Shown: positions 4,366 through 63,372 of the stretch, piece by piece
Layout of the letters: each line of letters opens with the position of its first letter
Numbering within the stretch: the stretch's first letter is position 1
NCBI GenBank assembly: GCA_030141605.1
Contig: JAQGDQ010000119.1
Location: 491,005 to 555,004, forward strand
DNA from: Tubiluchus corallicola
Lineage: Eukaryota; Animalia; Priapulida
Reading direction: 5' to 3'
DNA: 64,000 nucleotides
Notes under the pieces: generated by a model
The model's input: only the letters and a program-made list of their open reading frames with translations
Databases searched by the model: none
Told to the model about the DNA's origin: nothing
Position numbers and translations under genes: made by a program

Positions 4366-7300
4366 ATGGCGACGGAAACAAAGACAAGGAAGCCTCGGAA
4401 TTACAGGCTCCCAGGTGGAGTGATGCGTTTCTCACGGAGCCGAATGTATAAGAAACACGCACTGTACAAAAAGAACCGTTCCCATCCACCCAGGGAAAAG
4501 CCGAAGCGAGAAGCTGCTATCGTTACAAAAAAAATTGGCGGAGACAAAAATGGTGGTGAAAGAAAAGTTAGGGTGCACAGAATGGTAAGTATTAGTAACC
4601 TTATCAAATAGAGATTAATAGGATTTTTGTATGTGCAACTGCGCGTATATATGTAAGCAGGCAGAGATTATGCAAAAACTTTTTTCCTTTTATGCAGTGT
4701 AGTAAACATCTTTTGCCAAAACTTAATCTTTTAATTGACCAAATTGGTAAACATAAAAAAGATTCCAATGTTTTGTACATTTTGGCTCAATGCATGTACT
4801 TGCAAATTACAAATATTTATGTTTAAAGCCTAGATATTATCCCACTGAAGACAAGCCCAGGAAACCTAAAACAAGGAAGACATGCTTCAGTAAGCATGTA
4901 CGCAAACTTCGCCCCTCCATCAAGCCTGGCACCGTTCTCATTCTGTTGGCGGGGCGCCACAAAGGAAAACGTGTCGTTTTTCTAAAGCAGTTGCAGAGTG
5001 GCCTCCTACTTGTAACAGGTAGGTAGACTTGTTCCTTGTGCCATTTAATTGTCAATGTACAAGTACAGGTGCAACATTTTGAGCTTTTTCTCTTGAATTA
5101 TTATTTTCTGAAAATTCCGCTGCTTCAAACTACAACATGTTAAGGAGAATTTTATTGTTTCTGTTAAAGTAGAACTAATTTCCCAGATAAAGCTTTTCAT
5201 AGTCATTATCATCGTTCTCCTTACTAAAGCTCTTTCAGCTCTAAATTCGTTACCAAAAATTATCGTATAAAGTCTTATCAGATTAGTAATTATACTAGTA
5301 TGAGTAAGTTCGAGCTTGGTAATGATAGGTTAATTGGTGATTTACTTAGGATGGAGTGCAGGCTTACTCATTAACTGAATTGTAATGGTTTGTGTGTTTA
5401 GCAACCCAGGTTAAGCAGTACCAAGTTTGATCATTAAATGGAGAGACTATTATAATGGTAAAAGTTACCAGCGTTTGTGTTTTTATCACTTGTGTGAAAT
5501 CTTTAATGGTGTGTTAAGCAAAATGCCTTTTAAGGACTGAACAAATAGTCTTTTTTTGAGTGCATATATTAATACTTTTGTTCCAAATGCTAAAACTTCT
5601 TTATTCATACATAAGAGAATGAAACGCTGTTTGTCCTTTTTTACTCATCTAAATACGTGACATTTTTACTGTTTCAGGACCTTTTAGAATTAACGGTTGT
5701 CCACTTCGCCGGATTAACCAGATCTATGTAATTGCAACGCAGACTCAAATCGACATCAGCGATGTGGCGATTCCAGATCGCTTAACTGACGACTATTTTA
5801 AGCGAAAAAAGATAAAGAAGCCCAAACATGCAGAGGGTGATATATTTGAAAAAGCTACAGAGGTATGAGTGAGTTTCTATTTTGCAACATTTGCTTTTGC
5901 AACTGAGTGGTTTTCAGTTTTTCTATTTTGTCACACAAGCTTTGCAACCGAGTGATTTTCAGTTTTACAAATAATTTGCTTATACAGTAGCTGCCGCTTA
6001 ATAGACTCACTTTGGAACCGGCGTGTTTTGACGCAATTAACCTACTGAACATATTAACCGATGGGTATTACAGGTACAGAAGTATGATTCATTAGCTTAC
6101 TATGCACTGCAAAGATTTTTAATGAATTTTGGAAGTGAAGTAATGCCTAAGTTCCTTTGTGCAGTTAAAAATTAGAAAAACATAGAAAAAACACAAAAGT
6201 GAATAAGCAATAAATTAAAAGTATACTTTTCTAAATCACAGACTTTTCTAAGTCTGTTTATTTGCAAAAATTACAAAAATTCCTTCAAAGTCAGCTGCTT
6301 CATTTTCTCGCTCAGAAGTTAGCCCACAAAGTGCTCGTAATTATGAAAATGTTGAAAATCTGTTGCTGTGCGTGACTAAAACAGTTCTGAATCGTCTGCT
6401 CACTTACATTGCTCTTACTTGTTGAACGATGTTTACTCTTGTAAGTCACAAGGAATACCGGCTGATTACTGTACCTGCATCTTTGACTGTTAACTCATTA
6501 AGCCTAAAAGCATGATTTGCAACGAGAGCATCAAAAGGAAACCGCAAGACAAGTGATTAAATGTTTAGCTTCCAGAATTCTTTGGGCAACAGTGGGTGAG
6601 CAGTTAACAGATTCAAAGCAAAACCGCTACGCTAGCGTATTAGCGCATGGTAAACGTACCTGCTTACAAACAAAACAGTACTTAACATGGTTGTTTCTGC
6701 ATACATAGTGCACAAAAGGGAAGTAAAGATGACTAGGTGAAGGAAAAATATTGAGTCAATTATGCGGAGTTATTTGAGTCAGTTACCGATAGTTTTTATG
6801 TATATTTATATATTTTTGAATAGGAGCGGCCCGTTCCAGGCATTTTTAAGTCAATTAAGTGATTGAGTCTATTAACCATGTGCCTATTAAGTAGCGCCTA
6901 CTGTAGTACTTGATTTGGTCTGCTGTAGGTTACCAGTATGTAAGGTGTGCACATGTATAAGGGTATATGTTACAATACAGCACACTGTGCTCACAGCAAT
7001 GTATTGCTGAAAGATATTGTAATATCAGTGAAAGATTTTCAATGTTCTGTTAATAATTCTCTCATTGTTTTCCTGTAATTACTTATTTTACATAACATAC
7101 AAGACATTGTTCTCACTGCAAGGGATTTCTTTGTGCAGTGAATGACACAAAGCTGTTGTGCTCCTGGAATGTAGCTAAACTTATTTAGTTGTTGTAGCTA
7201 AACACTGATTATACATTTGTACTTGAGTTTTGGTTCAGTTTTCCAACCGATTATAAAAACATATTGCATTCAGTGCATTTTATAGTAACCAAAGAAAATG

Positions 7301-7835
7301 ATAACTAATGTGCCAAATAAAAAGTTTTTAATCATTACATGCAATTAAACTTGAACAAGCCATGTTTACTCAAATGTGTTTTTTACAAGTGTTTAACAGA
7401 AATAGGATTAGTTAGTTGAATTCTGACCAGTGACCTGTACTGGATTGCCTAAGGAAGTAGCTAACTGCATAAACTAAGATAAAAATCTGTGTCCTTAAAC
7501 TACCTTCCGTAAAACTAAAGGTTAATCAAATAAACTCATGAAAACAGTACTAAATTAGAACGTTTGAAAAAAATTTGCAGGACCGCTGGGTCTTCACCCA
7601 ACACTTACGACCTTTTGGGCAACTGTGCTGAGATAAATATTTGTGTTGACAGGTGATTGTATCTTTTTTTCAGAAATATGAAGTAACTGATGAAAGAAAG
7701 GAAGACCAACGAACTGTTGATTCTGCACTGCTGGATGCCATTCGCAAACACGAAGACAAGAAGCTTCTGTTTGGTTATCTTGGAGCTATGTTTTCATTGA
7801 AAAACCATCAGTATCCCCATGCAATGGTATTCTAA
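4366..7835 (+). CDS. RPL6: 60S ribosomal protein L6 (eL6), complete, 4 exons
   Basis: Exons 4366-4584, 4829-5018, 5678-5862 and 7674-7835 are all GT-AG with consistent phases (0,1,0). Motifs: [65 protein letters not shown] follows at about 7867. Confidence 0.97.
5985..6903. mobile_element. Non-autonomous Tc1/mariner-pogo-type element (MITE) in RPL6 intron 3
   Basis: Structure TA|CAGTAGCTGCCGCTTAATAG ... CTATTAAGTAGCGCCTACTG|TA, with imperfect TIRs starting CAGT, a TA target duplication and subterminal ttaatagactca/tgagtctattaa repeats. Confidence 0.8.
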
Positions 7836-12269: not shown

Positions 12270-14364
12270 TTATCATTTCATTGCTCCAGCCCTGAAGGTT
12301 ACCAGCATTTCGTTTTTTAATCTCTTATTACTTCATGCACATCTTCTACACTTATTTCCTTTATTTTCCTCTTTTTACATATCTCTCTAATTTGGCTGAA
12401 AATTTTATTGACTTTTTCTTCTGCTTCAAATTCTGCCTCCTCTATTGCAAGTAGTTCTTCATAATATTTCATATCCTTCTCTTTAGTTTGTTCACTGTCA
12501 CTGATCACCCTGCCATCATTTTCTTTAATCACACATGCTTCTTCAAAAATCCCAAAAAAAGGTTAGATCTCATTTTTCCTTAGACACATGAGCATTCTAC
12601 TGCTTTTTTCAGTCTCTTTGCTTAATCATTTTTCTCTTGGTCTACAATATGTTCCATCACGATCTTTATTCTTTCAGCCAATTGACATTTCTGAGATTCA
12701 CTGATGCCTTGACAATTTTGTGTTTGTTTTAATGTTCTAATTCTCATTAATTATTTATCATTTTTGACTTGCCTTTCTTTTTCTTGACATTTTTAGTTAT
12801 ACTCTCCTTTACTCTTAATACTTCTCGGTTCCATGTGTTATATTTTTCTTGACAACTCTCTTCTCCATCCCAAATCTTTGCTAATCCCCCTACTTCTGTT
12901 AAGTTTTCAAACAATTTTGCATCTTTTTCCTTTAATTTATATTTTGCTTTTCTTTTATCAGCATCTCTTTCATTTTCGACAACAAAAGCTTCTCTCCAAT
13001 TTAATGTTACTATTTTAGTGTTATGGTCAGAATATAACACTTCACCTTCACCTCTCTCACGAGCTGTTTTATATACACCCCATATCTTTGCTTCATCAAT
13101 AATTATTTCTTCTACAATGTGCGCATCATTTTTCTTTATTACTGCATAATCAATTACTGATTTAGATTCATTTTCCACCCTAGTTCATAGCCATGAGCAG
13201 TTATTAGCAGCATTTATCATTTCCAAATTGTTCTTATTGATTAAATTAATCAACAATTTACCAGCTGGGGTAACTTCTTCTCTAGTTTCTTGTATCATAC
13301 TTCCTACTTTGCAGTTGAAATCCCCAATCAACATAATTTTTTCACCCTCTCTTTCAGCTTCTTCTAAATATTTTTCGACGTGCTTGCACATCAGTTTTAA
13401 TTGTTGAACTTTTGTCCTTCCGTTCTGTGGTCCACATATATAGCCAATTCTCACTTTAATTCTACCATTGTTGATTATCATCCAAATCCCTTCATAATTT
13501 TCGTTTACTTTTTCTAATATATAAGTTACTCTAGCTAATTATTTTTTTTTAATAAAATCATTATTTCTCCTTTTTTGCCATTTCGATTATTAACGACTTT
13601 ATCGTATTCGCTATGTTTTGTTTCAGAATTAAATTCTTCATTTTCTTCCTCTCCATCATTTAAAAAAGTTTCAAGAATACACACAGTTTCTAGATCTTTT
13701 TCTTTTAATATTAAATTAACACTTTCTTCTTACTTTTTTAAACCCAAGTTTACGTAACCTATTTTAAAATTTTTGTACAATTTTTTATTACTATTCCCCT
13801 TCCTACCTTTCGTTTTAGCTCTTTGTTTATTTTTTAGTTTTTACCACCTCTGATTCATTTGAAATGAGATCTTTTGCACTTGTTCTCTTAAAAAATGTAA
13901 ATGTTGTTCCATATCTTCCATTTGTTTGCCTCTCTCTCTTACCTCTTTTGACCAGGTCATGTTACTATTGTTTTCACTCTCATATCCTCTCATTCAATAG
14001 TCTCTCTCCCATTCAGTATTTCGACCATTCCTTTCTGTTTCCCACCTTCTGTTTACTTTTTTGCTCTCTTGTTCTAAACTTTTGTCCTAAACTTGTCCTA
14101 CATTCACCTCTAAATGGGCATTGCCTACCTTCTCTGAAGTACCTGCACACAGTAATCATTTCTCCGAACTTCACATGCTTGTATCTACAATTCTCACCGA
14201 ACTAACACTTCAAGCCCTTGTGATGATATTTACAAATTATATCAGGCTTATCATTATTGCCGATTTGTTTGCTGGCTACTCCTTTATTATTTGCTAGAGG
14301 CTCATTTTTCGTTTCTTAATTGCTCCAGTTCTCTCTCATTTTTATCAAGTTCTTTTTCTAGTTC

Positions 14365-16210
14365 AATTCAATTTCAATTCAATTCAATTATTTATTATCT
14401 CCGTTAGAACGATAAAAATACAGTATAAAGAATACATGGAATATTTTAAAGCAAAGGAGAAGGGCAGCGAAGAACCCGTAGGTTATCAAGTCAGCCACCC
14501 TTAAATAGTTATGATTAAATAAACTTAATTATGGCGTCGTTATCAATTTAAATTTGTATTCGGTTGATGTGTGTTAATTTGGCAATTGAATGATAGGTAT
14601 CGTAATACTGTAGAACATATAGTTTAAATAACGAAAGATTTACAATTCTAAAATACTATGAATCATGCTAAGCAAACACAATAAAAATAACTTGAGATTT
14701 TTAAGATAACAGAATATGCATAATTTGAGCATTAACTAAAAAATCCGGCAAAAAAACAAAACAAAAAAACAGTAGAATGATCAACCAAAGCTGTCGAGAA
14801 AAAAATATAATAGATTAAACCAAGGAAAAATAAGGCAAATATAAATCATACAAAACAAAACAAGAAACAGAAGCAAATAAGAAAAACAAAACTGAAATGT
14901 TGTAATAATAACATCAATGACTGAATTTGTCGAGAAAGAAAATATAATAAATTAAACCATCGAAAAACTATTTCAACTGTAAATCAGACAAAATGAAATC
15001 AAAATATAACAAAAACTTAAACAAAATCTTTAAGTGTCGTAGCAATGAAAAAAATATGTATAGTATTACAAGTATATAAGCAAAATGTCTCATTTATTTG
15101 TATCCTGCAATAAGTTGTTTTTTATAGTTTAAAATTAACTTTTTGTAGTTACTGGACTTTAACTGGTCTGGTAATGAATTCCACAGCAAAGATCCTTGGT
15201 GTTTTAAAGAATTCTGGCCTTTAGATGAGTTAAATCATTCAATAAAATAAAATTGGGTTGTAGCAAACCTAGTAGAGTGGTGATGCATGTGACATGCTAA
15301 AGTATAATAATTGCTGAAGAGATCTGGAAGTGAATTATTTTTGAATTTATGTACAAACTTGAGCAATTCTAATTTATACAGATCATGAACTTTTAGTAGA
15401 TTTAGTTGCAAATACAAAGGTGTTACATGTTCCCTTTTGCTAGTAAATGTTGTAAGTTTGATAATCTTGTTTTGTTTAGAAACCAATGATTTTAAGACCG
15501 ATGCTGAAGCACTACCCCAGGCGAGAATGCCATAACTCAGATATGGCATGACAAGAGAAGAATATAAGAGCCGTAGTGCATCTACATTTATGTAGTGTCG
15601 TATTCTAGCTAATACTCCACTTAATTTGCTAATTTTGTTGACTATATGCTGAACATGTGTTTTCCAAGTAATTCTACTATCTATAAATATACCAAGATAT
15701 TTGATTTCTTGTGTAGATTGAATAGTACAACATCCCATATTTATGTTTAAACTATTGTTATGTTGCTTGTTTCCAATTAACATATATTTTGTTTTTTTAT
15801 AATTTATCGATAGCTTATTTGCTTGCATCCATTTATTAATATTGTCCAGCTCCACATTTACTGAATGTTCTAATGTTTTGATATTTTGGTGTGATAAAAA
15901 TAAGTTTGTATCGTCTGCAAACAATCTGGTGTTAAATTGCGAACAAGATGGCAGATCGTTAATATATAAAAGAAATAACAATGGACCCAATGTAGAACCC
16001 TGTGGGACACCACAGGTTATATCAGCAAGTTTAGATTCCGATGAGTCAATAGACGTAAACTGTTTCCTATTAGTAAGGTAAGACGTGAAAAGCGCAAGAG
16101 GACGTCCCCTGATACCATAGTATGATAACTTATATAACAAAATGTCATGTTGTACCGTGTCGAATGCTTTCGATAAATCTAAAAATATAGCACAAGTAGT
16201 TTTCCCCTTA
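14365..16210 (-). mobile_element. 5'-truncated CR1/L2-group (Crack/Daphne-like) LINE inserted in the host LINE ORF1
   Basis: RT motifs FLDLSKAFDTV, GVPQGSTLGPLLFLLYINDL, LFADDT and KYLGIFID. The 3' UTR ends in AATAAA plus a (TTGAA)n tail. A 6-bp target duplication TAGTTC flanks it at 14359-14364 and 16211-16216. Confidence 0.9.
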
Positions 16211-16339
16211 TAGTTCCTTGACTTTATCACCTGTTTCTCTTGCCTTTTTGTTGTTTTCTTCATCAGTTTTACTTTTTCGAACTTTTCCTTAGTTGTTTGA
16301 CATATTCTTGTGCCAGAATGTACTTATGTCTAGTTTCGA

Positions 16340-16343
<4 letters not shown>

Positions 16344-16399
<56 letters not shown>
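16344..16399. repeat. (CT)n/(AG)n microsatellite
   Basis: Pure ctctct run inside the host LINE ORF1 region; it produces the spurious SL/RE ORFs. Confidence 0.95.
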
Positions 16400-16405
<6 letters not shown>

Positions 16406-19744: not shown

Positions 19745-22700
19745 ATGGAGACTGATTCACACAGTGTGTTCAAGCTAATCAATGGATCAGCTTATATAAA
19801 AATAAATCTTGATGCTGTTACTAAGAATGTGAATATTTTGCGTTCTTCAGTGTCAAATCGCACAGGTAAGCAAATGTATAGACTAATAAGCCTGCATGTT
19901 TTAATCATGTTTTAAGTTATTTGACTGCAACGTAATGTATCCAGACTCACCCTGGCATTGCCCATTGTCTGGTAATGCTGTATTGAGCTTCATTTGAAAT
20001 TAAAAACTACCAAAACCGGCTAAACAGTCCAGCTGTGTACATTTGTTTTAAAAGTATATGTATAATATGACAGATTTTGGTCTAAGGATTTTAAACAAAG
20101 TATTTAAATTGTTTAAACTCTGCAGAGAATGTTACCTTATTAATTGTTTGTGGGCAGCCAAGAAACTGTTGGAAATAGCTTCGATATCACAAAATATAAA
20201 TTAACCCAAAACAGTATTGGATCACTATAAAAAAAATATCAACATTTTTGTAGATTTATTGAAATTAAAGCTGTGTTCATATCATAAAATTCAAAGGCTG
20301 TAAATCACAGTTGTTTTTGTTGTATAATAACAAAATAAAGCTTTTAATGCACTGATAAAAATGGTTTTCTAATCAGCATTTATACAGTTAATTTATGAAC
20401 AATATACAGAATGTGCACAAGGTAAAGTCTCATTCCCAAGTAAGAAGTAAGATAGGCAAGTTAGTGGGAGGCACCTTAGACTGTAGTTCACCAGCAGGCC
20501 TGTGTCTTTTTACTAGCAAATCCCAAGCTTCACTTCAAGTTATATATAGTATAGTATATATAGTATACACTTCAAGGAAATATAGTAATGATACGTCTTA
20601 CTGGCAACTCCAGCTCTGCACAGAATAAGTCAGACTCTGTGTATATATATATATATGTTTATTGACTGATTAAGAGATAGTCGAACATTTGGTTCAGTCC
20701 ATAGATCATTACAAAAAAAGGACTTTTGATCATATAACATGATCATTCCTGTCAAAAAAAAATAACTGAAGAATTATTTACACATTCTCACTACACACTT
20801 ATTATCGCCTAACATGATCATTACTGTCAAAAAAAATAACTGAAGAATTATTTATACATTCTCACTACCCACTTATTATCGCCTAACATGATCATTACTG
20901 TCCAAAAATCGCTAAACAGTTATTTACAAATTCACAATATGAGTTTGGGTTTCCATTGAAAAATTCATGCAAAACGTTGAAGCTCAGTTCAGTGTTATCT
21001 TCACGAAGGTGATTAGTAAGTGGACAAAAACAGATAACATGCTCTTCTGTTTGAATGTTTAAGCCAGAACAGGAGCATAGCCTGTCCTCTCTTTTTATCC
21101 TTGCCCATCTTCCCGTCTCAATAGCTAGGTTATGTGAGGAGAGGCGTAACCGAGATGTTTTAATCCTATGGAGCTCATTTACTTTAACGCTATACATTGC
21201 ACTGACAGATAGTTCGGGATTCAGATAGAGATAGGTGCACAGTTTAGTTCTCTCGGAATCCCTGTTATGTTGTTTTGTGTTCACGAGGTCGTCAGAGATA
21301 ATATCCGTTTTACGAAGGATAGCTTTCACATATTGTACACATGGTGTGTTCGCTTCTGAGCACAAATTCCATACTATTGAAAATGGGTCGTCGGGCTCGT
21401 TGGCCCTCGATTCGATTATCCGTCTAAAGAACTTTGATTGCACGTTTTGAACGTACGCTTTGGCAGAAGGTAATCCTAGCTCGACTAAACATAAGTCATT
21501 AGCGGTTGTCTTCCTGACGCCAAGCAATGCTTTAATCACAGAATTGTACATCACATTTATCGGTTTAAGATTGCCAGTCAACCAAGATTCACAGCTGTAG
21601 AAAATAGATGATAGCAGGGCCGCGTCCATCACTTTTTTCTTAACCCAGAATGGGAATAGTGAGTTTTTGTTCACAAATGATACATATTTAAGAACATGGG
21701 TAAACCTTTCTTCGCAATGTTTTTCCAGTGAGGGCTGTAACTTTCCTGAAGCACTGGTTCAAATGTACATCAACACTGTTTCAAATGACAATCGTTTGCA
21801 TATCAAAATACGACTTTGCACCTCAAATTGATGTATATATGATAGTTGACTTTGACAGTGAGTCTAGTCTACCTACGTCACAAACTACAGCTGCATCAGG
21901 CTAACCATTGTCGGTTCCAAAATTTTTTTTTTTCATTTTTATGTTGTTACCAACATTCATTCACTGCTTTTTATACACATGGCTGCTTTTAACATCCACA
22001 TGCCAGCTGCTCTCTACCTGAACTAACTTTGTTAGATCACCTGTTCTGGCTTCCACTCATGCAGATGTGCAAAACAAAATATGAAGGTTACTTGAAGATA
22101 CACATTTCTTGGTATTAGAATAGGAAACTAGCTGAATCGCTTGAAAATTCATACACTGACATGACATTACAGACGTTTATATATGAACACCAAAAATTTT
22201 AGGTCATTCTCCAAAGACACAGAAATATTAAATCGGTAAGTCAAAAAAATAAATGCCTAAAAAAATTTTGTGTCGCTATTGTTGAAATTTACAGCAAGTG
22301 CTTTGAATGTCCATCATTTTTACTGAAAACTAGAAAGTTTTTTCCAACAGTTGACATAGTTTCTCAGTTCTTTAAGGGGTAGTTGGTCCCGACATTCAAC
22401 AATTTTTTTATTCCCTGCCATTATTGTACTCTAAACTTTGGCACATTTTTTCTGCACCACCCAATATATGGGTATTTTGTGGATTAAGATTTGTCTGTAG
22501 TCTGTCGCATGGCAGATGCGCTTTTGCTTACATTTCCTAAAGCAAACTACATCGTGCGGCTCTGTTTTAAATGTGGGATGTATGAGTTCTTGAAGCCAAC
22601 ACACAGTGAATTTCCCTCTGCTGTGCTAAGTGTTAGGGCAATGTTTCAAGAATTTACAAAATTTCACACAAATATTTACTTTTGAATGTGGGATTTTTAG

Positions 22701-25700
22701 CAAATTTTACCAGAGAATTTTTGAAAAATTGTTACTTAATGACATTTTGCATCTTTTACTTCCCATTTTGGTTTTCTCTACAAACCTCAACAAGTTTATC
22801 TCCTTGGGCTCGATAGTAAGCATTTGCAGTTTGCATTGTATCTATACATAACTCATTGTTATATTCTTAGTAAAGCATTTTGGAAAGTAAACGAAAAATT
22901 AAAATAAAAAGCAGACTGATGTTACGTTGTTGAAATACACTGACGATGTTGTCACTTCTCACAGGAATGATAGGTGTCGTGAAAGGAGGCTGCTATGGTC
23001 ATGGAGGCATTCCGGTATCACGTCACTTGAAATCACTTGGAGTGGAAGAGCTCGCCGTTGCCACTATTGGGGAAGGCCGATCCCTTCGACAAGCCGGCAT
23101 ATCAGGGAAAATACATGTGTTAGGTGATTTTTGTGTTTCCTGTGTTTTCAACGGAGGGAGAGGCTGGTAGCTTTGTTATGAAACAGTGACACCCTATCGA
23201 CACTATTTACAGTGCTTTTCAACAATTAGTTAGACCTACTATAAAAACTTTCTGTAGCAGTTCTGATTAAGCTTAGTAAACCGACCATTAGCTTTACATA
23301 GCTACGTGGTAATATTTTTGCAAATGGAAAAGGCTGTTATTGTTACTTTTTTCATTTTGTTGCCAAACAGCAACATATATGTAAATGGCTGAAGTCTTAC
23401 AGTATATAAATCCTCCACAAAATTGTCTTGATGTAGAAAGAGTAGTGGTAGCTTCATGAAATTTTAACTTTTTGGTGTGACACTTTTACTGTCAAAATGA
23501 TGTTCCTGTTGCCTTTTAATATACACTCAAACCTTTTTATACCCTTCACTTTTGGACCTCATACAGTTGGCGTTATAACAAGTTTGGGATTATAACGAAG
23601 TACATTAATGCATACATGTCTGTGCAAATATAGTTATTGTGTTTTGCTAAGAATTTGGGCGTTAAGCAAAGTTGGCATTATAAAGGGGCATTATAACAAA
23701 GTTTTACTGTAATGTTATTAGATATACAAATATAATTTTTGCCATTGTAAAAAGCAATGGCATTTCTTTTGGTTATTGTTTTAAGCATGCAAAAACCCAA
23801 ATGAATAAAGATATTTTCGGAAAGACAAGAGTTGTTTGTAAGATAAGCAAGTACCTTGGGAAATACAGGACGGTTGACGTAAACACTGACATAAACTTCT
23901 GGTTAAATAGTGATGGAATACATTAGAGATTGCATTCAGTTTATTATCAATGATTGCGCAATAGGGTGACATTATCGAACAAAAAGAAGCATCCCTTGCT
24001 TGCCCGAACTCATAGTTGGAAAAGCGAAAAGAAGAAGTTTAACTACCAAATTTGGAGTAAATAAGCCATTACAAATCATTTGATCAGGTGTATAATATTG
24101 TAAAAAATGAATCACTGAAGAATTTTTTGCTTAGTGATTAATCTGTTAGAGGAAGAGAGTTTTCATCGTTGGAATTGTCTATCAAGGTATTCACTAATAT
24201 TTTTTTTGTTTTAAGCCAATATGCTGCCCGAAGAGTTTGATGCGGCTATGAAATATGACCTCATTCCGACAGTTTGTTGGGATCGAAGTTTGAAAGCTAT
24301 AGGAAAAGAGAGGCTACAACATAAGGTATATAATGCTGTTGCTTGAATCACTGCTTGTCGATTGAACAAATGAAGATTTTGCACATTGTTTGAAACTTTC
24401 AGACGTTTGTGGTTTACAACCTGAATTCACAAGTAGTGCCGACAAGCCACTGGCATAGCAGTGTCTAGTTTTTTGCTAGATTACTGCTGTGTTTACCTGT
24501 CTAATCTGAACATGTCGTGTTCTTCTAATGAGTTTTAAAACGTCCTCCAACTTCAGAAGTTTTGAAATTATGATGGCCTAATGATGATAAGGCATAACTT
24601 TCCTTTCAGAATGGAAATCGTTTAAAAGTGAACATTAAGGTTGATTCGGGCATGGGTCGCTATGGAGTGCAAAGTGAAGATTTAGATGATTTAGTACAGG
24701 TAACATATTCTATCTTAAAACATGTTCTATACAATAAGCACTGTACCAAATGAGCTATTTACAATACCAAAATACAAACTTATCAAGTTCGGTGTTTCAT
24801 TGTTATTGCCATTTACATCTCTTAGAACCGTGTTATGTTATGCAAGCCGATCTTGTCTGCTTATTTATAAATTTATTTGCTCTTCATTACCAAGTGGCTA
24901 CAAGAAATGAAGTTTTGTATGAATGGTACTTGGGAGAAGAGGAAAGTGGAGAGCTAGAGAGAGAGATGTGAGCAAAGCTAGGCAAAGAGAGGGAAGGAGA
25001 GAGAGAGAGAGAGAGAGAGAGATAGGGTAAGCGAGCGAGCTGGTGAGGAATGAAAGAAAGAAAGTTAAGAGATGAGCAGTGATACAAAAGTAAAGGCGAG
25101 CAAAGCTTGCTCGCTTTTGTTGCTATTACTTATTATCAAAATCAGTTGTGGCCTTAAAAATTATATCATCAAAATGCATTAATTAGCATTGTCTCACCAT
25201 TAGAATTCTTTGGCAAACTGGAACTTTTGAATGACTAATAAGCTTTTTCACGGTCTCGTTGTGCACACGCGTTGGTCAAAAGTTAAGTGTACCACAGCAA
25301 CGAGTCTTTGACTACAACTGTCACGTGACATGGATAAAACAAATCTGTCTGCTGCATCAGTTCAGTAACTTCAGTTGTTTTGCCTAGACTTTACTTAATT
25401 ATTGTAAGATTCTAGCTAGATGTTAAATCTGTTACTATTACAACAGTATGGACTGCGATGTCATGGATGTCAAGTATACACTAATGCGTCATCTGGTACA
25501 CCTAACTTTTGACCTTTTCAGGATCATCATTAATCGCTGGAACTATGAAAACGCTTATTAAGGTAGACAGATGTCAAATATTACTTCGAAACGTTACTGT
25601 ATTTTTATAGTCCTTGGATGCCATGGACGTTGGAATAGAAGGCATATTTTCCCATCTTGCAGGAGGCATTATGGATCGCGAAGGAAACGGAAAACAACTT

Positions 25701-28700
25701 GATACGTTTCTAGAGGCTACTGATCCTTATTGGTATTGTGTTTTCTATTACAGCTGCTGAATATAATTGTTTACCATCTTATTTTTTACCAATGCTCAAG
25801 TTTGTCTTGTGTCCGCTTACGACTGATATTTTTTTTTGTCTTGAACATAAATTGAAGCTCTACTAACCATGTTCTACACGCTGCTGCAAAACTTTTCCTT
25901 GCGCTCAAATTTTGCATGAAATAGTTATTTTTTGGCTTCCTCTGTGTGACCTTTGACCTCTCGTGACTGGTTGCACAACACAAGACTAACATATTTTTGG
26001 AACTTAGCCTTTGAGCATTCTGTTTAGTTACTCAAACCTTTTGTGCTCGAATTTTGCATAAGCTTCTTTGGGTTTCCTGTCTAATATTGTATTCAAAGTG
26101 AACAAATTGTGGCAGAGTGGAAGGAGACAAATGATAGCATTATGTTGAAACATACGAGACAAATGATAAAATTGTGTCTAAACAGTCGCATTTCACAACT
26201 ATATTTAATTTTGAGCAAATGTCCTATTGCATAAAAGTTGTAAATGGGTTTACACCAAAAAATTCTGACATCAATTTGTGCCTGTTACCAGCTTGTAATA
26301 ACAAACATGTAGTACGACTTCTGTATTGTGACATAAGTAAAAGTTATACACGTTCGTGATAGCACGTTTTTACTTTGGAAATTTGGTTAAATTGCTAAAA
26401 CTATACTGCGCAGCGTGTTTACTACTGACTTGTTAGTTGTTTTAAACGTACACTAGTTTATTATATTTTGATAATATTTTTTGTGTCATGGCTCAGAGCA
26501 TTTCAAGCAGCAAGTATTCCTGCATGTTATATCTTCCACAAGGCATGTGCTGTCCATCTACAAAAACAAGAGAAATTGGTTTGTTTCTTCAATGAATTTT
26601 GTTAAGCTAGATTAAAGTAATTCCTGCTCATTTTGTGTTTTTAGTGGTAAGAACGTTGTACGACATATAGCAGCCACGACTGGTGTCTGTCAGGAATTTG
26701 GAATTGATTTAGATTTCATACGACCAGGTGGATCACTCTATGGAATGTGTTCAGGTAAGCGGCGAAGAGCTAATTAGTAGTAAATAAGAATGTCTAATAA
26801 GCCGTTTCGCTATGTGCGTACACGTTTGCTGTAGGTCAAAGGTTAAGTGAACTCAGCACGTCTTACTTTACTACAACTGTCACTTGACCTTATGCATTTA
26901 ACTACATGTAGGTGAAATGGGTGAAACACATTGTTACTTTTATTACATACTATGTGTGTATAGTTCTAAACTAACAAGTTATTCTTATCAGAAAACAGCT
27001 ACAAAATAACAGCAGCTATCCACATAAAATGAAATGACTGAAGTGAAAATTAATGCCAAGAACTGTTACTATTACAAAAGCATGGGTCTCGAGGCATTTT
27101 CAAGTGTAAATAATGCGTTGTTTGGTTCAGGTAATGTTGTTATGTTCACTTAGCCTTTGAACTTTTCACGGTCATCATCAATCGCTGGAACTGTGAAATG
27201 TTTTATTGTCATAAAAGGATGGGATAAATCATGTGATTAATCGGTAGGGGTAAAGGACTCGTGTTGAACATTTCATTGTGAGAAGGTAGAGAATGATATA
27301 TATTCGGCGAAACCCGAATCCTGATCAATCCTGGTGATATCTCTGGGTGTTGTGTCACTATGTATGGTGTAAATAATGTGTGTTGTCTTGACAAGTCTGC
27401 GCCTCTTTTTGATTGCACACTAGACGTATTTAGATGTTTGATAGCTTTCTGTGCAAGTTTTGCAAAGTAAGGCCAACAAAATAGTAACAAAGTCCAAATC
27501 ATTAAAACTGGTCTGAACCGTTAGCAAAAATTTGTTATTTCCATAGAATCAGTTAAATTTCTTCAGAACCAATGAAAAAAAGAAAAAAAGCGTGAAAGAT
27601 TTGTCCCTGAGTGGGTGATGCCAACCGAGTTCTGGAAAATAAGTGAAAAATACCTCTATTTTTATTATTTTGAGGCAGTTTTCATTTTATTCAAGGTACT
27701 TTTGTTTGAGAAGCCATTTTGATGTTTTTTCACTATTTATGTCTTCTCACATATCTGGGAAATTTAGCTAATTGTGTTTAATCAAATGTTAGAGATATTC
27801 CATGATATATTTGTTAATAGTTGTCATTCCTTCAAATTTCTAGGCAACGATTTACCTGGATCGAAAATTTTCCAGGATAAGGGATTTCAACCAGCAATGT
27901 CTGTCATTGCCAAGCCTACATTTTACAAACTTCTTGGCAAAGGGCGAACTGTCGGTGAGTGTGCTTACATTGCATGTAAAGATTAAGTGCTTTGATTATG
28001 TCAGATGTGTCATTGGTGGGATGAACTTAATTTATTTTCACAGAAATATTTATTACATAACACTTGTGTTAGATATTGTAATATGGACGACAGGGCTAAT
28101 AATTAGTGCACTAAAACTAACATTATCTAAACTTAACAATATGGTAAGTTCTTCTACTTTAGAAACATTATAACTGCAGTACATTGTGCAAGAATTTCAG
28201 CACTCTTTTTGTAACTACACTCATAACTCGGTATGCTGGACCACGTTTTTACGGATATCAGAAAAATCAGACAAAATCTGGACCATTAAAAGCCTCATAC
28301 TACGGACACAGTCCATTGTTTCACGAGTTGACCACTAGTTGGCAGGCCATCACTTTGTTTACATCATTGCATCAGTGCAAAGTGCAACCAAGCAGTGTGT
28401 AACTATGCGTGTGTATCTTGTATGTCAGGAGCAGCCTGCACTAAATGTTTTTGAGACAATTAAGCAATTGATTCTACATTGCCATGAATGTAATGCATGG
28501 TGCCTGCTGTATTAGCTATTAATTAGTATCGGTAAATACGGACAATCGGCAAATTCGCTTTTGTCCAGCATACCCAGGTGTGAGTGTATATTGGAAATTG
28601 TTTGACTCATACGTGATTTATTTACAAGTTAAAATGGATTAGTTAGACAAAATTTGTGCTGTACAAAATGTTGCAGGATGTCGGCAAAAAATACACAAGA

Positions 28701-31347
28701 ATGCCTTTGATTTGACTGAATCTTGTGAATTACCATTAATTGATTTCTAGTTTCATTGTTTTCATTAGAAGACATTAGTATCTGAAGTTTACATTCTGGA
28801 ATAGTACTAAGTAAACTTATCCAAATTTATCCTGGGAGTTGTTGTAGATTTTTACTCAGCAATTGAGAATTTTTTCAATCTACATTTGAAGTTGTTTGCC
28901 TTTCTCTTCTACCGCAACGTTAACTTTAAAGCAGATGAGCAAAATTGCTGCATGGCTGTACGGAAATACGGGTGCGGTATATACTGGTAAAATCGCGGCA
29001 GTGAACTTGATGAAGTCGTGTGTGATGCCGCTGGCTGAAATTCTCATGAATCGTACAGTCAACAACTAAATTGTCTTTTTTCCCTGTTGTAATTATTATT
29101 AATTTTTGCTATTTTTTAAAAATAACGATATACTTTTGAAATGCTTTGTACTTGTGTTTTAGTAAAAACATAAATTGTGCAGATTGACCAAAGGTGGCTG
29201 TAATTTATTATTTTTCCTATAGGCTATGACAGAACTTACGCAACACAGAAAAAGGAATGGATAGCAAACCTTGCAACAGGTTGGAGTGACGGTTTTAAGC
29301 GACTTCTTAGTGGAGAATTAGGAGCTGTGAAGTGTAATCGTACTGGTAAGCCTCGTGTAGGGTTTTGATCCTGTAGTTGGCATTTTACATGCTTCGATCT
29401 TTGTACATTCTTGAAAATAAGGTATTCTGCTATCATTTGTTAAAAAGACCTACACTATTCTAATGTACAAAAATATATAACAGGATTTTTATTCTAACGC
29501 ATTTCAGCAAAATGCAACGTTAAGTAAAATGTCATTAAATAAAACCCAGACTTCTGTAGAAACTAATGTAAAAGAATAGATAGATCGCAAGCCGCATTTA
29601 GTCCCGTCAAACTTGATGACGTAACACACATTCTCACAAACTCCCTTGCTGTAAGTGCAGCATGTAAATAAATGAAAAACGTGGAAAAATTTGGTACTGG
29701 TAAGTTTGGTACGAGGAAATTTTGGAACTGGGAAAATTTGCTGCTATGAATTTATAGTACAGCAAAATTTTACCTCTCGGAACATTGGGTACAGGAAAAG
29801 GGAAATTGGTACTGGGAAGATTTAATACAGTACTGGCAAACATTGGCAAGCATTTTTGGTACAAGTAAGTCCAGTACAAGGTAAAAATGGGACGGAACAC
29901 GTTTGGTGCTAGAAACGTTTAGTACCGAAAAAGTTTAACTTGTACTGGGAAAACATGGTACAAGGAAAGTATCTTTTATAAAATCTACAAAATGATCATA
30001 CATCATATTAAACATTATGAATGATCAGTCTTAAAGACTTATATAAGCAATATTATAGTTAAAATAATATAAGTTAATTACCCAATTAAACAGTGAATAA
30101 CTAATAAGAGGTCTGTCAAATACTGGATGTTTTTAATAAACATTAATGCAAACATTTGGCAATCTCTTGTAATGGCATAAAAGCTTTAATTAAAAAAAAA
30201 TTAGAAACTAATTACCTTAAGACAAACAGCGTATTTATTAATTTGACGGCTCACCTCATGTTATATACCTAGCTGGGAGAAATTTTTTCATGCGACTGAT
30301 TTGTTTGAGTTTTTGGCTTGGAGAAACTGATGAATCTTACTGTTTCTAATCTTTCCAGGCACCACACATCTACATAATTATTACTCAACCATAATGTTTC
30401 ACCACTATAATTTCTCTGTACTACTGCTAATTGGCAGTCACTAGGAGGACCTCAGCTAGTTGACTGACGTTTTGCGATCTATGTATTGAGATATGTTCCA
30501 AAGGCAAAAATCAGTGTTGCTTGATTCATGTAAATTAAACATTTTATGACTTATCGTCTAGCTACCGATTGCTATAGCAACAGGTTGGAGGCAAAATTTC
30601 TTCACATGAAAGTTTGCACCTAAGTGCCTGGACATGTATCAATCGAAAATTATTTCGTTTGTTACAAACTACTAGCATTTAGTAGTCAGTTGGGTAGCAA
30701 AAACATAAATAACATTTGTACTGTTTTACATTACTAGTGAGTTTTTAGAATAGAATAGTGCAATATGTGCTGTTTTAGTACTTCAAATTAGGTAAAAAGT
30801 AAAAAAGTCACCATTAAAATGAAACGTGCATCATTAAGTAAGAAAGGTATCAAATTTTTAACATATTATTATGATCACACAAAGAATCACAAAGAACTTA
30901 CATTTATTTTCTATAAAACAATATTATAAATTAAAGCACTCAAACTTTTGTTTCTGATTCAGAACGCTCTTGCCGTGAAGTCCGCCGTGTTCACTGTTCT
31001 GTCGCGAGTGCACATGAATTACGCAATCTGTGCGTAAAGCTTAACTGATTAAGCATAAGTCTAATAACGATAAGAGCAAAATAAATCATTTCTCATTTTC
31101 AAAATGTGACCTTTGGCGAAGCGAAATTGCTGACTACTTTTACACTTGAGTCTGGTAATGATGGAACTACATTGGAATAACTGGAAAATAGTAAATAGCA
31201 TCCAAAACATGAAAATATATAATTTTGGTATCTAAAATTGCTGTTAAAACGAAATGTCGCTAAACGGGGAGTGTTGTTAAGCGAGGACTTGCTGTAATAG
31301 TAAAACCTCTATTTTACTTTCAAAGTAGAATTTATGCTTAGCTATGC

Positions 31348-31378
<31 letters not shown>

Positions 31379-31765
31379 CGATTTTCTGCATTTGGAATGG
31401 CATAAGTTAAAATTGTTAATGAGTAATGAGCTTTGAACTAATTAAAATTTTCTTGAATATTTTGATTCCAGCTTCACCATACAGATTTTATTCATTATCA
31501 TTGTCTAGGAGAGCTTTGTCCAGTTGTCGGCAGGGTGTCCATGGATTCAATCACCATTCGGTTACATAACCCACAGCAGGGAAATGATACGTTCTCTGTA
31601 ATGACCGATGACTATGCAGAGAAAACATCTTTAGCGGCCATTGCTCGATTGGTAGGTGGAGCTAACTACGAGATTGCTGGGATGTGGTCAACACGACTTC
31701 CTCGCATTTACTTTAAAAATGGTCAGTTGGTTGAGATAATGCATGCTGTTGATTATTGTAATTAA
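19745..31765 (+). CDS. alr: Alanine racemase-family PLP enzyme (fold type III, bacterial-type), complete, 9 exons, 400 aa
   Basis: Exons 19745-19865, 22965-23123, 24216-24325, 24610-24699, 25611-25732, 26645-26754, 27844-27954, 29223-29345 and 31509-31765 total 1203 nt. All introns are GT-AG, phases are consistent and there is no internal stop. Motifs in order: AYIKINLDAVTKN, GVVKGGCYGHG (PLP Lys), LAVATIGEG..LRQAG, NIKVDSGMGRYG, EGIFSHLA, DFIRPGGSLYG, VGYDRTY (catalytic Tyr), GWSDG, CPVVGRVSMD, NYEI, RLPRIY. Confidence 0.95.
20642..21750 (-). mobile_element. 5'-truncated LINE (RTEX/Proto2-like ORF2 C-terminus) in racemase intron 1
   Basis: ORF 20895-21674 contains SSIFYSCESW, LLGVRKTTANDLCLVELG, RLRLSSHNLAIETGRW and CSC...TEEHVICFCP. 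The 3' UTR has AATAAA and a (TA)n tail at about 20642-20663. Clade call tentative. Confidence 0.8.
20735..20905. repeat. Tandem duplication, 74-75 bp x about 2.3, at the LINE stop/3' UTR
   Basis: Units start at 20735, 20810 and 20884 (taacatgatcatt.ctgtc...cacttattatcgcc). Confidence 0.9.
23523..23711. mobile_element. Degenerate pogo-like MITE remnant
   Basis: The right end tataacaaagttttactg|ta and repeated gttataac-type subterminal motifs are clear; the left end is degenerate. Confidence 0.4.
24930..25075. repeat. Purine-rich / (AG)n microsatellite
   Basis: gagaga run at about 24997-25022 within a degenerate AG-rich tract. Confidence 0.85.
25236..25560. mobile_element. MITE family A, copy 1 (racemase intron 4)
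   Basis: TIR taataagctttttca / tgaaaacgcttatta (14/15) and inner inverted pair ggtcaaaagttaagtgta / tacacctaacttttgacc. Shares actacaactgtcac and catcat.aatcgctggaact with copy 2. Confidence 0.75.
26795..27207. mobile_element. MITE family A, copy 2 (racemase intron 6)
   Basis: taataagccgtttcgc ... ggtcaaaggttaagtgaac ... gttcacttagcctttgaac ... catcatcaatcgctggaactgtgaaatgttttattg; same orientation as copy 1. Confidence 0.7.
29580..30280. mobile_element. Probable non-autonomous element with an internal degenerate ~15-bp tandem array
   Basis: Repeated (aaa)tttggtactgg-like units at about 29685-29965, bracketed by the short inverted pair ccgtcaaa (about 29604) / tttgacgg (about 30242). Superfamily unresolved; possibly Helentron-like. 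Confidence 0.4.
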
Positions 31766-35029: not shown

Positions 35030-37390
35030 CTATGAACTATGAATTTTATTTCACACATCAAAAAATACAATATCAAACACATTAATAAACTTTAAATAAA
35101 ATAATCTGAGTAGTGCGAGGTGAGTGTACGCCCATCAGGTCAATAACGCACTCACCTTACTTAAATGAAAAAATGATTATAGTTATGAGTGCTTCTGTAG
35201 ATAACAATGTAAATAAGGATGAAGTAAATGATGTAATATTAAGTAATAATAGCAATGGTATAAGAGCAAGAAACCTGAAAGTTGAGAAAGGAAAACATAA
35301 TATGTAATTACGACTTTGAGTGAGCCTTAAAGAGTGAAATTTTTTTTAAATAGTTACGAATATGAATTATGTGATTATCTGTCAATGTACCACTTACTTG
35401 TAATTGTATTACAATGCACCATATTGCTTACTTGTATATACAATGATATATATACATATATGTTCCCATATTTAACTGGGGGAGAAGAGATTAAAATATA
35501 CATTATACTTATAGTATTAACTATAATTTATAGAACATTTAAATATGATTGATAGTAGTAATATAGCCTTCATAACCATTAAAAATGGGCTATGTGGAGG
35601 GAGGGGGGCAAATTATAAGAATATAAGTGATTCATTAGCAAAATTAATGTGACAATAATACATTCAAAATTTTTTGTATCACTGGTATTTGCTGATTATA
35701 AGCTAAGAGCATTTTCCAAGTGGAAACAGATACAGATATAGGCTGCGATGAATGAATAATTTCATTTTAATTGATTTATACCATTTATTAATAAAGTAAC
35801 AAAAGTCGTAAAGATACCTGTTAGTAAAAGAAAAACATTAGTGCAAAAAGACACACGTGCTCAAAAAAGAGAAAAAAACCCTGGTTTTCTACGCCATTGA
35901 ATATTTACTAATTAAAAATATCTTGTATTGCTTGGTAGCTATTTTTAAAGGAGAGGAAATGATTGTCTTGGGCACACTATTCCACAAAATAACTCCATTG
36001 TGCTGTAAGGTATTTAAGCCATACGCTGTGTTAAATCGTGTTTGAAAATAGTGTCCCATACTGGAAGACCTAGTATAGTGAGAGTGAACATCTTTGATTA
36101 AGGTAAAGTAGTTAGTATATAATTCAGGCAAGTGCCGGTTATTAAACTTATACATGAATTTAAATAATTCAAGATTATAAATATCTTCTATTTTCAATAA
36201 TCTAAGGTGTATGTACGATGGTGTTGCATGGTCTCTATAATTGGCAAAAGTCATGTATTTAACTATTTTATTTTGAACTGTTAATAGTGGCTGTAATAAG
36301 TATTTTTTTGTTTGCCACCAAAACAACACACAGTATTGGAGGTACGGATAGACTAATGCATGGTAGATCATTTTCAAAATAGGCAAATTAATAAAATGTC
36401 TTAACTTTGCAAAAATGCCAGCTGCTTTGTTGCTGTAGAGGAAATGTGGGTAGACCACTTCATATTGTTCCCAAGGTATTTTATACTACTACTTTGTGTT
36501 AGAGTTATGTCGCCAATTTTGAGTTCAAAAGTGGAAGAGTCTTGTTGTGAAAGGTTCCTACTGATTAACATATACTTAGTTTTAGTGTAATTAACAGATA
36601 ATTTATTTGCTTTCATCCAATCATCAATCTTTTTTAGTTCGTTGTTAGTGCGATGTTGTAAAGTTGAATAGTTAGTAGATGTGAGGAAGAGACTTGTGTC
36701 ATCAGCAAAAAGAAGAGTGTTAAAATCAGTAGCAAGAGGTAGGTCATTGATATAGATCAGGAAAAGCAGCGGCCCAAGAGTGGATCCTTGAGGTACACCA
36801 CAGTTTATGTCTAGCAAATCAGATCATGTATTATTAATAGTGGAGAACTGTTGTCAGTTAGTTAAGTAAGATTTGAGGAGATCCAAGACAGGGCCTCTGA
36901 TTCCATAATAATGTAATTTATGTAGTAGAATATCATGTTGGACTGTGTCAAAAGCTTTAGGAAAATCTAAGAATATTGCACAAGTGAATAGTTTTTTGTC
37001 TAAATTTAGAAGCATATTTTCAACAAATTCAGACGTAGCTAACGAAGTGGCGTAAGTTTTGCGAAAACCAAATTGAAATTTTGTTAGTATATAACATGAA
37101 GTGAGAAAATTGTTAATGCGATTACAAATAATATTTTCAAAAATTTTGGAAACTGGTGACAGGAGAGAAATTGGATGGTAATTTGATAGGTTGTTTGGCG
37201 AATCATTTTTATAAAGTGGTTTTACTTTAGCTACTTTTAGACATTCAGGAAAGGTTCCTTCAGAAACTGCCATATTAAATAATCGAGAAAGTACTGGAAC
37301 AATTAAATCAGTTGCTAATTTGTAAAATTTAACCGGGACATTTTCTGGGCCACGTAATTTATTTTCGTTAAGTTTAAGAGACAAATCTGT
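35030..37390 (-). mobile_element. 5'-truncated CR1/L2-group (Crack/Daphne-like) LINE, frameshifted
   Basis: ORF pieces 36854-37384 (NYHPISLLS, QFGFRK, FLDFPKAFDTV), 36401-36817 (GVPQGSTLGPLLFLIYINDL, LFADDT) and 35889-36458. A 3' stem-loop aggtgagtg...cactcacct lies at about 35117-35157, with AATAAA and a (TTCATAG)n-like tail near 35030. Same group as the element at 14365-16210. Confidence 0.9.
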
Positions 37391-63073: not shown

Positions 63074-63229
63074 GTAAAAAACCTTTAGCATCACTGTTGT
63101 TATAATCTCATTGAAAAGGGTGCTGATTTGATGGTCGTATGGTTTTTCACCACCCTTTCTCCATTGCTACTTGTATTTTGGATGCTATCAGTTCACTATT
63201 GTGTTGAAAAAAGAGATAAATACAATCTC

Positions 63230-63237
63230 TTGCTCTT

Positions 63238-63280
<43 letters not shown>

Positions 63281-63372
63281 GTCTCTGTCTGTCTCTCTCG
63301 CTCTGTCTTTCTCTCTCTCTCTCCCTCTCTCTCCCTCCCTCCCTACCTCTCTCCGTCTCTCCATCTATCTAT
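63230..63372. repeat. (CT)n/(CTGT)n microsatellite
   Basis: Long ctctct run with variants. Confidence 0.95.

What the first reader, a model, noticed from the sequence alone, without database searches (positions are those of the whole stretch)
19745..31765. Intact, 8-intron bacterial-type alanine racemase gene in an animal genome
Seen: nine exons splice into an uninterrupted 400-aa protein with the PLP lysine (VVKGGCYGHG), KVDSGMGR, SH, RPG, the catalytic Tyr (GYDRTY), GRVSMD and NYE motifs. The gene sits between RPL6 and TMEM120, and its introns carry host transposons, so it is not bacterial contamination. Established: fold-type III Alr is a peptidoglycan enzyme absent from vertebrates and most model animals. 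Bacteria-like alanine racemase is known from penaeid shrimp, and free D-Ala occurs in crustaceans and bivalves. Inference: this is an old horizontally acquired, fully intronised gene that gives this animal its own D-amino-acid synthesis (osmolyte, signalling or microbiome control), possibly unreported for this lineage.
Basis: partly seen in the sequence, partly recalled or inferred. Interest (0 to 1): 0.8.

Follow-up and report, generated by a model that had tools for sequence, protein, structure and literature searches.

The report
Ancient animal alanine racemase, priapulid worm
This is an intact nine-exon gene, likely from a priapulid worm, for a bacterial-type enzyme predicted to make D-alanine; it is likely the inherited counterpart of an enzyme already studied in prawns and shares six of its eight intron positions with distant animal relatives, so it is an old animal gene rather than a new transfer.

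Summary
Nine exons with eight GT-AG introns give a 400-aa fold-type III alanine racemase with all catalytic residues. One contig of a related run, guessed to be RNA, joins exons 7-8-9 across both introns. The host is likely a priapulid (RPL6 nearest Priapulus). The protein is 63% identical to Priapulus caudatus 'alanine racemase-like' and 53% to the Penaeus japonicus enzyme. It nests with Priapulus (100/97), Malacostraca (100/100) and annelid, nemertean and mollusc homologues (97/96). Six of eight introns match relatives in position and phase. The gene is therefore likely inherited since at least the protostome ancestor, not a lineage-specific transfer. A Deinococcus-Thermus-related origin of this family was already flagged in a 2016 supplement. 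Not found in my ten paper searches: the priapulid member, and two choanoflagellate proteins as sister group (99/93), with a jakobid next. That hints at a pre-animal origin, which the AU test does not establish (p 0.07). Activity is untested. The scan noted an unrelated Naegleria racemase before. Verdict: new member of a known kind; modest interest.

The parts
19745..19865 (+). Alr exon 1 (Met1-Thr40; intron 1 phase 1)
   Evidence: intron 1 shared with L016
22965..23123 (+). Alr exon 2; PLP-binding Lys47 and Tyr51
   Evidence: Pfam PF01168 E 3.4e-11; intron 2 shared with L013, L016
24216..24325 (+). Alr exon 3 (intron 3 phase 0, in a variable loop)
   Evidence: aligns to homologues; intron 3 absent in L016
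24610..24699 (+). Alr exon 4; Lys140 (often-carbamylated position) and Arg147
   Evidence: Pfam PF01168 E 3.5e-06; intron 4 shared with L013, L014, L015, L016
25611..25732 (+). Alr exon 5; His175
   Evidence: intron 5 shared with L013, L014, L015, L016
26645..26754 (+). Alr exon 6; His208, Arg227 (RPG)
   Evidence: Pfam PF01168 E 0.0086; intron 6 shared with L013, L016
27844..27954 (+). Alr exon 7 (domain linker)
   Evidence: 3' end joined to exon 8 in an X2 contig
29223..29345 (+). Alr exon 8; catalytic Tyr276 and Trp295
   Evidence: Pfam PF00842 E 8.2e-06; joined on both sides in an X2 contig; intron 8 shared with L012, L013
31509..31765 (+). Alr exon 9 to the stop codon; GRVSMD and Tyr369
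   Evidence: Pfam PF00842 E 1.5e-10; joined to exon 8 in an X2 contig
20898..21758 (-). 287-codon open frame inside intron 1, likely a retroelement remnant (the likeness to a LINE tail is recalled)
   Evidence: no Pfam hit at E 0.01; multi-copy depth in X1
4366..7835 (+). RPL6 gene (4 exons), used only to place the host
   Evidence: Pfam L6e; spliced; 73% to Priapulus caudatus, sister to it at 87/77

Best explanation
This is an intact nine-exon gene for a fold-type III alanine racemase, likely the vertically inherited priapulid orthologue of the prawn enzyme, and predicted to convert L-alanine to D-alanine in the worm's own cells. Shown: the gene structure, the family, the residues and the place in the tree. 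Inferred from the known mechanism: PLP is bound to Lys47 in the alpha/beta barrel, two subunits pair head to tail, Lys47 and Tyr276' of the partner act as the two acid/base residues, and Arg227 with His175 tunes the cofactor. There is no obvious N-terminal extension, so the enzyme is likely cytosolic. The most likely role, by analogy with crustaceans, bivalves and polychaetes, is to build a free D-alanine pool that serves as an intracellular osmolyte and stress reserve in sediment life. The intron-bearing gene likely existed in the last common ancestor of Ecdysozoa and Spiralia and was lost patchily. Its closest prokaryotic relatives are Thermaceae, so the ultimate source is likely bacterial.
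For: Open 400-aa frame, 8 of 8 canonical introns. 52.6% identical over 390 aa to Penaeus japonicus B9WYE8 and 62.9% over 256 aa to Priapulus XP_014662282. A profile of 77 bacterial-type homologues scores the spliced protein 280 bits, against 274 for the Penaeus enzyme. K47, Y51, K140, R147, H175, H208, R227, Y276, R324, M327, D328 and Y369 are all kept; their roles come from passages of PMC3245724, and my numbering transfer is by motif and spacing. Careful 50-row tree: window+Priapulus 100/97, +Malacostraca 100/100, all animal rows 97/96. The data do not reject monophyly of the spiralian rows (AU p 0.35) and do reject Ecdysozoa+Thermaceae (p 0.009). 15 of 16 internal introns mapped in five metagenome loci fall at the same column and phase as window introns 1, 2, 4, 5, 6 and 8. 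The X2 contig skips introns 7 and 8 exactly. Of its 17 listed differences, 11 are synonymous, about 0.17 per synonymous against 0.03 per non-synonymous site. An AlphaFold model of the Penaeus orthologue (pLDDT 85) matches solved alanine racemases at TM about 0.8. Papers state that D-alanine acts in osmoregulation in bivalves and crustaceans (passages of PMC10918092, PMC12259925, PMC11850409).
Against: No activity, substrate or tissue D-alanine data exist here for any priapulid (0 papers). Only 2 of 8 junctions have transcript-like support, from a contig about 91% identical, in a run whose RNA status is a guess. 7 of its 24 differences were not listed. The host call rests on one gene with unstarred support (87/77). 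Introns 3 and 7 are not shared: intron 7 is absent in L012 and L013 and lies 4 nt off in L016. I chose the exon ends in those loci among GT/AG candidates beside the tblastn hits, which leans towards agreement. Only L013 and L016 were placed in the tree. The structure model is of the prawn protein, not of this one. An entryway residue differs from bacteria (Trp295 for Tyr284'), though the prawn enzyme has the same Trp.
Confidence: 0.82

Rival explanations
1. Same history, different chemistry: the enzyme is a broader or shifted racemase (for example Ala/Ser), or works mainly to recycle dietary or bacterial D-alanine back to L-alanine.
For: The fold-type III family includes serine, lysine, histidine and broad-specificity racemases, all hit by the same search. 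Several animal homologues vary at the specificity position Y369 (Ser, Asn, Asp, Val). A racemase is reversible, and a sediment feeder or predator would take in D-alanine (inference).
Against: This protein keeps Tyr369 and M327/D328, like the Penaeus enzyme and bacterial Alr. The best NCBIfam model for the Penaeus orthologue is TIGR00492 alr (221 bits, cut-off 168), and the VanT and DadX models stay far below their cut-offs.
Confidence: 0.13
2. A recent or lineage-specific horizontal transfer from a bacterium into this animal, intronised afterwards.
For: The nearest prokaryotic relatives are Thermaceae. Named animal homologues are patchy: none of 39 named rows in the animal clade is a deuterostome, cnidarian, sponge, insect or nematode.
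Against: The protein nests inside a starred animal clade next to Priapulus and crustaceans. Six intron positions are shared with loci of the annelid-rich subclade. AU rejects even Ecdysozoa+Thermaceae (p 0.009).
Confidence: 0.02
3. A decaying or catalytically dead copy, like the second Priapulus paralogue.
For: Priapulus XP_014674082 has Arg for the PLP lysine and lacks the catalytic Tyr and Arg147 equivalents, so dead copies occur in this group.
Against: The window protein keeps every catalytic position checked and has an open frame. Differences to the X2 contig are mostly synonymous.
Confidence: 0.03

Closest known systems
Penaeus (Marsupenaeus) japonicus alanine racemase, UniRef B9WYE8; cloned by Yoshikawa, Okada and Abe 2009 (seen only as a reference-list entry in PMC12259925)
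   Same: 52.6% identical over 390 aa; same two Pfam domains; sister clade at 100/100; shares Trp at the Tyr284' position and all catalytic residues
   Different: The window protein keeps Lys140, the often-carbamylated lysine, where the crustacean rows have Asn or Glu. It also lacks about 20 N-terminal residues. Activity has not been measured.
Priapulus caudatus 'alanine racemase-like' XP_014662282 (256 aa, partial model) and XP_014674082
   Same: 62.9% over 256 aa to the first; both form the window's sister group at 100/97
   Different: Automatic annotations only. The window model is full length. The two Priapulus copies group with each other (100/96), and the second has lost catalytic residues.
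Lottia gigantea V4B0P7 / Capitella teleta alanine racemase, listed as a transfer from 'Bacteria (Deinococcus-Thermus?)' with a 'close hit in a crustacea' (PMC5169069, supplementary Table2.XLS, part 1 of 2 read)
   Same: The same proteins (P0031, P0243) sit in the window's animal clade, and Thermaceae are again the nearest bacteria
   Different: That row names Gastropoda + Capitella as acceptors and says sampling prevents interpretation. It has no priapulid, no intron comparison, and no choanoflagellate or jakobid relatives.
Bacterial biosynthetic alanine racemase Alr (TIGR00492; PDB 1sft and relatives)
   Same: Fold (TM about 0.8 for the prawn model), PLP lysine, catalytic tyrosine and active-site network
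   Different: About 27-36% identity; spliceosomal introns; no peptidoglycan role expected; a changed C-terminal segment shared by the eukaryote+Thermaceae clade.

Membership tests
Alanine racemase, PLP fold-type III (Pfam PF01168 + PF00842; TIGR00492) | N-terminal Ala_racemase_N barrel followed by Ala_racemase_C domain | tested here: met
   Exons 2 and 4 pass the PF01168 cut-off, exons 8 and 9 pass the PF00842 cut-off, in the right order
Alanine racemase, PLP fold-type III (Pfam PF01168 + PF00842; TIGR00492) | PLP-binding Lys (Lys39) in the VVKxxxYGHG motif | tested here: met
   Lys47; Lys in 46 of 47 rows with a residue; motif from PMC3245724 passages
Alanine racemase, PLP fold-type III (Pfam PF01168 + PF00842; TIGR00492) | Catalytic Tyr265' and supporting Arg219, His166/168, Arg136/138, Met312, Tyr354 | tested here: met
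   Tyr276, Arg227, His175, Arg147, Met327, Tyr369; numbering transferred by motif and spacing, not by a structure of this protein
Alanine racemase, PLP fold-type III (Pfam PF01168 + PF00842; TIGR00492) | Whole-protein score above the TIGR00492 cut-off | tested here: inconclusive
   The spliced protein was not scanned whole. The Penaeus orthologue scores 221 against a cut-off of 168; on my own 77-sequence profile the window protein scores 280 and Penaeus 274
Alanine racemase, PLP fold-type III (Pfam PF01168 + PF00842; TIGR00492) | Homodimer and measured L/D-alanine racemisation | not testable with these tools
   Needs recombinant enzyme
Animal (protostome) alanine racemase orthogroup typified by the Penaeus enzyme | Nests in the animal clade in an order compatible with the species tree | tested here: met
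   Priapulus 100/97, Malacostraca 100/100, animals 97/96; Spiralia monophyly not rejected, p 0.35
Animal (protostome) alanine racemase orthogroup typified by the Penaeus enzyme | Shared intron positions with other members | tested here: met
   6 of 8 window introns shared; 15 of 16 mapped introns in L012-L016 match. The loci are unnamed; L013 and L016 fall in the annelid-rich subclade.
Lineage-specific bacterial transfer (xenologue) | Nested among bacteria, without older animal orthologues | tested here: not met
VanT serine racemase / DadX / broad-specificity racemases | Score above the curated cut-offs of those models | tested here: inconclusive
   Orthologues and two single exons score far below those cut-offs; the whole window protein was not scanned

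The most novel reading that the evidence does not exclude
The animal alanine racemase is older than animals. One acquisition from a Thermaceae-related source occurred before the choanoflagellate-animal split, or earlier still in eukaryotes given the jakobid Andalucia. It was then kept in some choanoflagellates and marine protostomes and lost in deuterostomes, non-bilaterians, insects and nematodes, so D-alanine synthesis would be an ancestral choanozoan ability. For: Salpingoeca punica and Codosiga hollandica proteins are sister to all animal rows at 99/93 and 97/93, and eukaryote monophyly is not rejected (p 0.32). Against: animals+Thermaceae without choanoflagellates is not rejected either (p 0.07). 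The choanoflagellate proteins come from a transcriptome-style collection and could be contaminants or separate transfers. Many losses are needed.
Probability: 0.4. Interest if true: 0.55.

Novelty: new member of a known kind. Interest (0 to 1): 0.32.

Why it matters
As a gene, it adds a full-length priapulid model to a family known biochemically from prawns, crayfish and clams, and it predicts free D-alanine in priapulids, which is easy to test. The more useful by-product is the history of the family. The tree and the six shared introns tie the crustacean, priapulid, annelid, nemertean and mollusc enzymes to one ancestral intron-bearing gene, which settles the point that the 2016 survey left open for lack of sampling. 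It also supports the host-encoded 'AR-like' genes as the source of bivalve activity, which a 2025 paper calls largely uncharacterised and possibly microbial (PMC12259925 passages). If the choanoflagellate sister group is real, D-alanine synthesis would predate animals. None of this is a new kind of system.

Tried and rejected
No whole genome is held for this window, so copy number and paralogues outside the window are unknown; tblastn finds no second copy inside the window. The run search listed no holder on record as RNA. No listed X2 joint bridged junctions 1-6, which is no evidence either way. The AU test under the mixture model on 50 rows did not finish; I report a 28-row LG+G4 version instead, a simpler model that is more open to long-branch pull. 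Rows left out of the trees: proteins under 230 aa; 220 or more redundant crustacean and bacterial rows. Non-homologous tails of four rows were cut. Indels do not decide whether the eukaryote rows form one clade: motif spacing is 27-33 in eukaryote rows, 26-32 in the Thermaceae group and 25-27 in outgroups. The ESM Atlas look-up of the Codosiga protein returned only alanine racemase clusters. P0041, labelled Ancora sagittata, shares a 90% cluster with Capitella, so I treated it as likely host carry-over. Pfam gave no meaningful name to five exon pieces of the minus-strand neighbour gene. Paper searches with 0 hits: alanine racemase + Priapulus, + choanoflagellate, + Andalucia godoyi, priapulid + D-alanine. 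A search on priapulid anaerobic alanine gave one off-topic listing. The library lacks most subscription journals, where much of this field publishes, so these blanks are weak. The scan's look-ups by sequence and by nearby place were empty.
Full report
1. The observation. Nine exons (19745-19865, 22965-23123, 24216-24325, 24610-24699, 25611-25732, 26645-26754, 27844-27954, 29223-29345, 31509-31765) splice into 400 codons and a stop. All 8 introns are GT..AG, 284 to 3099 nt long. Five of nine exons hit Pfam alanine racemase domains on their own. One 331-nt contig of run X2 runs from the end of exon 7 through exon 8 into exon 9, with net skips equal to introns 7 and 8. The run is only guessed to be RNA, and the contig differs at 24 of 283 letters, so it comes from a relative or a divergent individual. 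Of the 17 differences listed, 11 are synonymous (about 0.17 per synonymous and 0.03 per non-synonymous site), as expected of a protein under selection. Junctions 1-6 rest on sequence and homology alone.

2. The host and the surroundings. The window is 34% GC. RPL6 (4366-7835) is 73% identical to Priapulus caudatus RPL6, the best of 28 named rows, and is its sister at 87/77. The racemase independently falls next to Priapulus. The host is therefore likely a priapulid other than P. caudatus; earlier AI notes on this genome say the same, which is not independent evidence. Retroelement fragments surround the gene (RVT_1 hits at 15.2-16.3 and 36.9-37.4 kb). A further minus-strand gene at about 43-50 kb lies between the racemase and TMEM120. 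Bacterial contamination is excluded by the introns and this context.

3. Relatives. A search with exon 9 gave 8 hits among 137 candidates: 6 named crustacean proteins and 2 unnamed. A search with the Penaeus enzyme gave 156 hits at E 1e-20 or better, 120 listed. A profile search of 1.84 billion representatives listed its best 150. The spliced protein is 52.6% identical to Penaeus japonicus B9WYE8, 62.9% to the partial Priapulus XP_014662282, 35-43% to annelid, nemertean and mollusc proteins, about 36% to two choanoflagellate proteins and to Meiothermus, and about 27-33% to other bacteria. In a 270-row FastTree, 54 rows besides the window form one clade (0.957). 39 of them carry names: 23 Malacostraca, 2 Priapulus, 4 annelid, 1 nemertean, 8 mollusc and 1 gregarine label that clusters with Capitella. 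13 are unnamed and 2 were not looked up. No named row is a deuterostome, cnidarian, sponge, insect or nematode, but clustering at 50% can hide members.

4. Tree and tests. The careful 50-row tree (LG+C20+F+G4) gives window+Priapulus 100/97, +Malacostraca 100/100, all animal rows 97/96, +Salpingoeca punica and Codosiga hollandica 99/93, and +Andalucia godoyi, an unnamed partner and Thermaceae 100/100. The Thermaceae label comes from record titles and names. AU tests on 28 rows under LG+G4: Ecdysozoa+Thermaceae is rejected (p 0.009). Spiralia as one clade (p 0.35), all eukaryotes as one clade (p 0.32) and animals+Thermaceae without choanoflagellates (p 0.07) are not rejected. I named these groups after seeing the first trees. 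Eleven bacterial rows have atypical composition, which the models do not allow for.

5. Introns. A metagenome scan returned 16 loci: 10 uninterrupted, bacterial-type matches and 6 interrupted ones. In five of the six (L012-L016) I mapped 16 internal introns. 15 fall at the same alignment column and phase as window introns 1, 2, 4, 5, 6 or 8; one lies 4 nt from intron 7. L011 shows only an acceptor at the intron 8 site. Intron 3 is absent in L016, and introns in that variable loop in L013-L015 were not mapped. L013 and L016 belong to the annelid-rich subclade (95/97). I picked the splice sites among candidates beside the tblastn hits, keeping the frame open, so the match is not blind; agreement at six sites in both column and phase is still far beyond chance among about 1200 possible sites. 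Several database gene models also break at or near these places: the Hyalella, Lineus and Lottia models near residue 41, Scylla at 131 and Halocaridina at 239. That is only a hint. The intronised gene therefore likely predates the Ecdysozoa-Spiralia split.

6. Mechanism. Passages of PMC3245724 describe the head-to-tail dimer, the PLP lysine (Lys39), the catalytic Tyr265', Arg219 acting through His168, the often-carbamylated lysine and the entryway Tyr284' and Tyr354. The window protein has Lys47, Tyr276, Arg227, His175, Lys140, Arg147 and Tyr369, with Trp295 at the Tyr284' place as in all 8 priapulid and crustacean rows. A model of the Penaeus orthologue matches solved alanine racemases; the window protein itself was not folded. 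Racemisation of alanine is thus a strong inference. The role of the product is a weaker one. D-alanine is described as an osmolyte in bivalves and crustaceans and as linked to hypoxia tolerance in bivalves, and it is found in polychaetes (passages of PMC10918092, PMC12259925, PMC11850409, PMC7700177). An osmolyte and stress-reserve role suits a burrowing marine worm. An earlier AI note reports an anaerobic pyruvate enzyme in the same genome (not checked by me).

7. What is known. Crustacean and mollusc alanine racemases have been purified, and the prawn gene cloned (reference lists and Table 4 of PMC7700177; I did not see those papers). The 2016 survey PMC5169069 (passages, section 17 part 1, supplement file 4 part 1) lists Lottia V4B0P7 and Capitella as a transfer from 'Deinococcus-Thermus?' with a close crustacean hit. 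The Priapulus orthologue has an automatic 'alanine racemase-like' name. Searches for a priapulid, choanoflagellate or Andalucia link found nothing, but the library lacks most subscription journals, and bioRxiv supplements are closed.

8. Verdict. The gene is real and likely functional. It is a new member of a known animal family with an already flagged bacterial origin, not a lineage-specific transfer. The remaining interest lies in the single ancient origin shown by tree and introns, and in the untested possibility of a pre-animal origin (probability about 0.4). Interest 0.32.

Noticed in passing
P0254 (Priapulus caudatus XP_014674082): The second Priapulus copy has Arg at the PLP lysine, a gap at the catalytic Tyr and Met at the Arg147 position, so it is likely a catalytically dead paralogue; it groups with the intact Priapulus copy (100/96).
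   Followed up: partly
P0252, P0253, P0262, P0282: Two choanoflagellate proteins, a jakobid (Andalucia godoyi ANDGO_01088) protein and an unnamed JGI protein are the closest non-animal relatives apart from Thermaceae.
   Followed up: partly
window 43036-50219, minus strand: A multi-exon gene between the racemase and TMEM120, with at least five exons visible. It resembles sulfotransferase-fold 'BCAT-like' proteins (recalled); Pfam gave no meaningful hit on exon pieces.
   Followed up: partly
window 20898-21758, minus strand: An uninterrupted 287-codon frame inside intron 1, multi-copy in run X1 and resembling a LINE tail (recalled); no Pfam hit at E 0.01.
   Followed up: partly
window 9594-16323 and 35889-37396: Several LINE-type reverse transcriptase fragments on the minus strand; a hAT dimerisation fragment at 56228-56485 lies within the TMEM120 region.
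   Followed up: no
L016:3326-3471 and L016:3597-3603: An intron 4 nt away from window intron 7 (a possible intron slide), and a possible GC donor at the intron 8 site.
   Followed up: no
P0041: A protein labelled Ancora sagittata shares a 90% cluster with Capitella teleta, likely host carry-over in that data set.
   Followed up: no
P0264, P0289, P0260, P0266, P0249: The Mya and Dreissena proteins are long-branched and lack the Arg147 equivalent; Batillaria has several copies. Bivalve and gastropod copies may have diversified.
   Followed up: no
window 24940-25060, 16290-16400, 53000-53200, 63200-63370: Simple (GA)n and purine-rich repeats; the first lies in intron 4.
   Followed up: no
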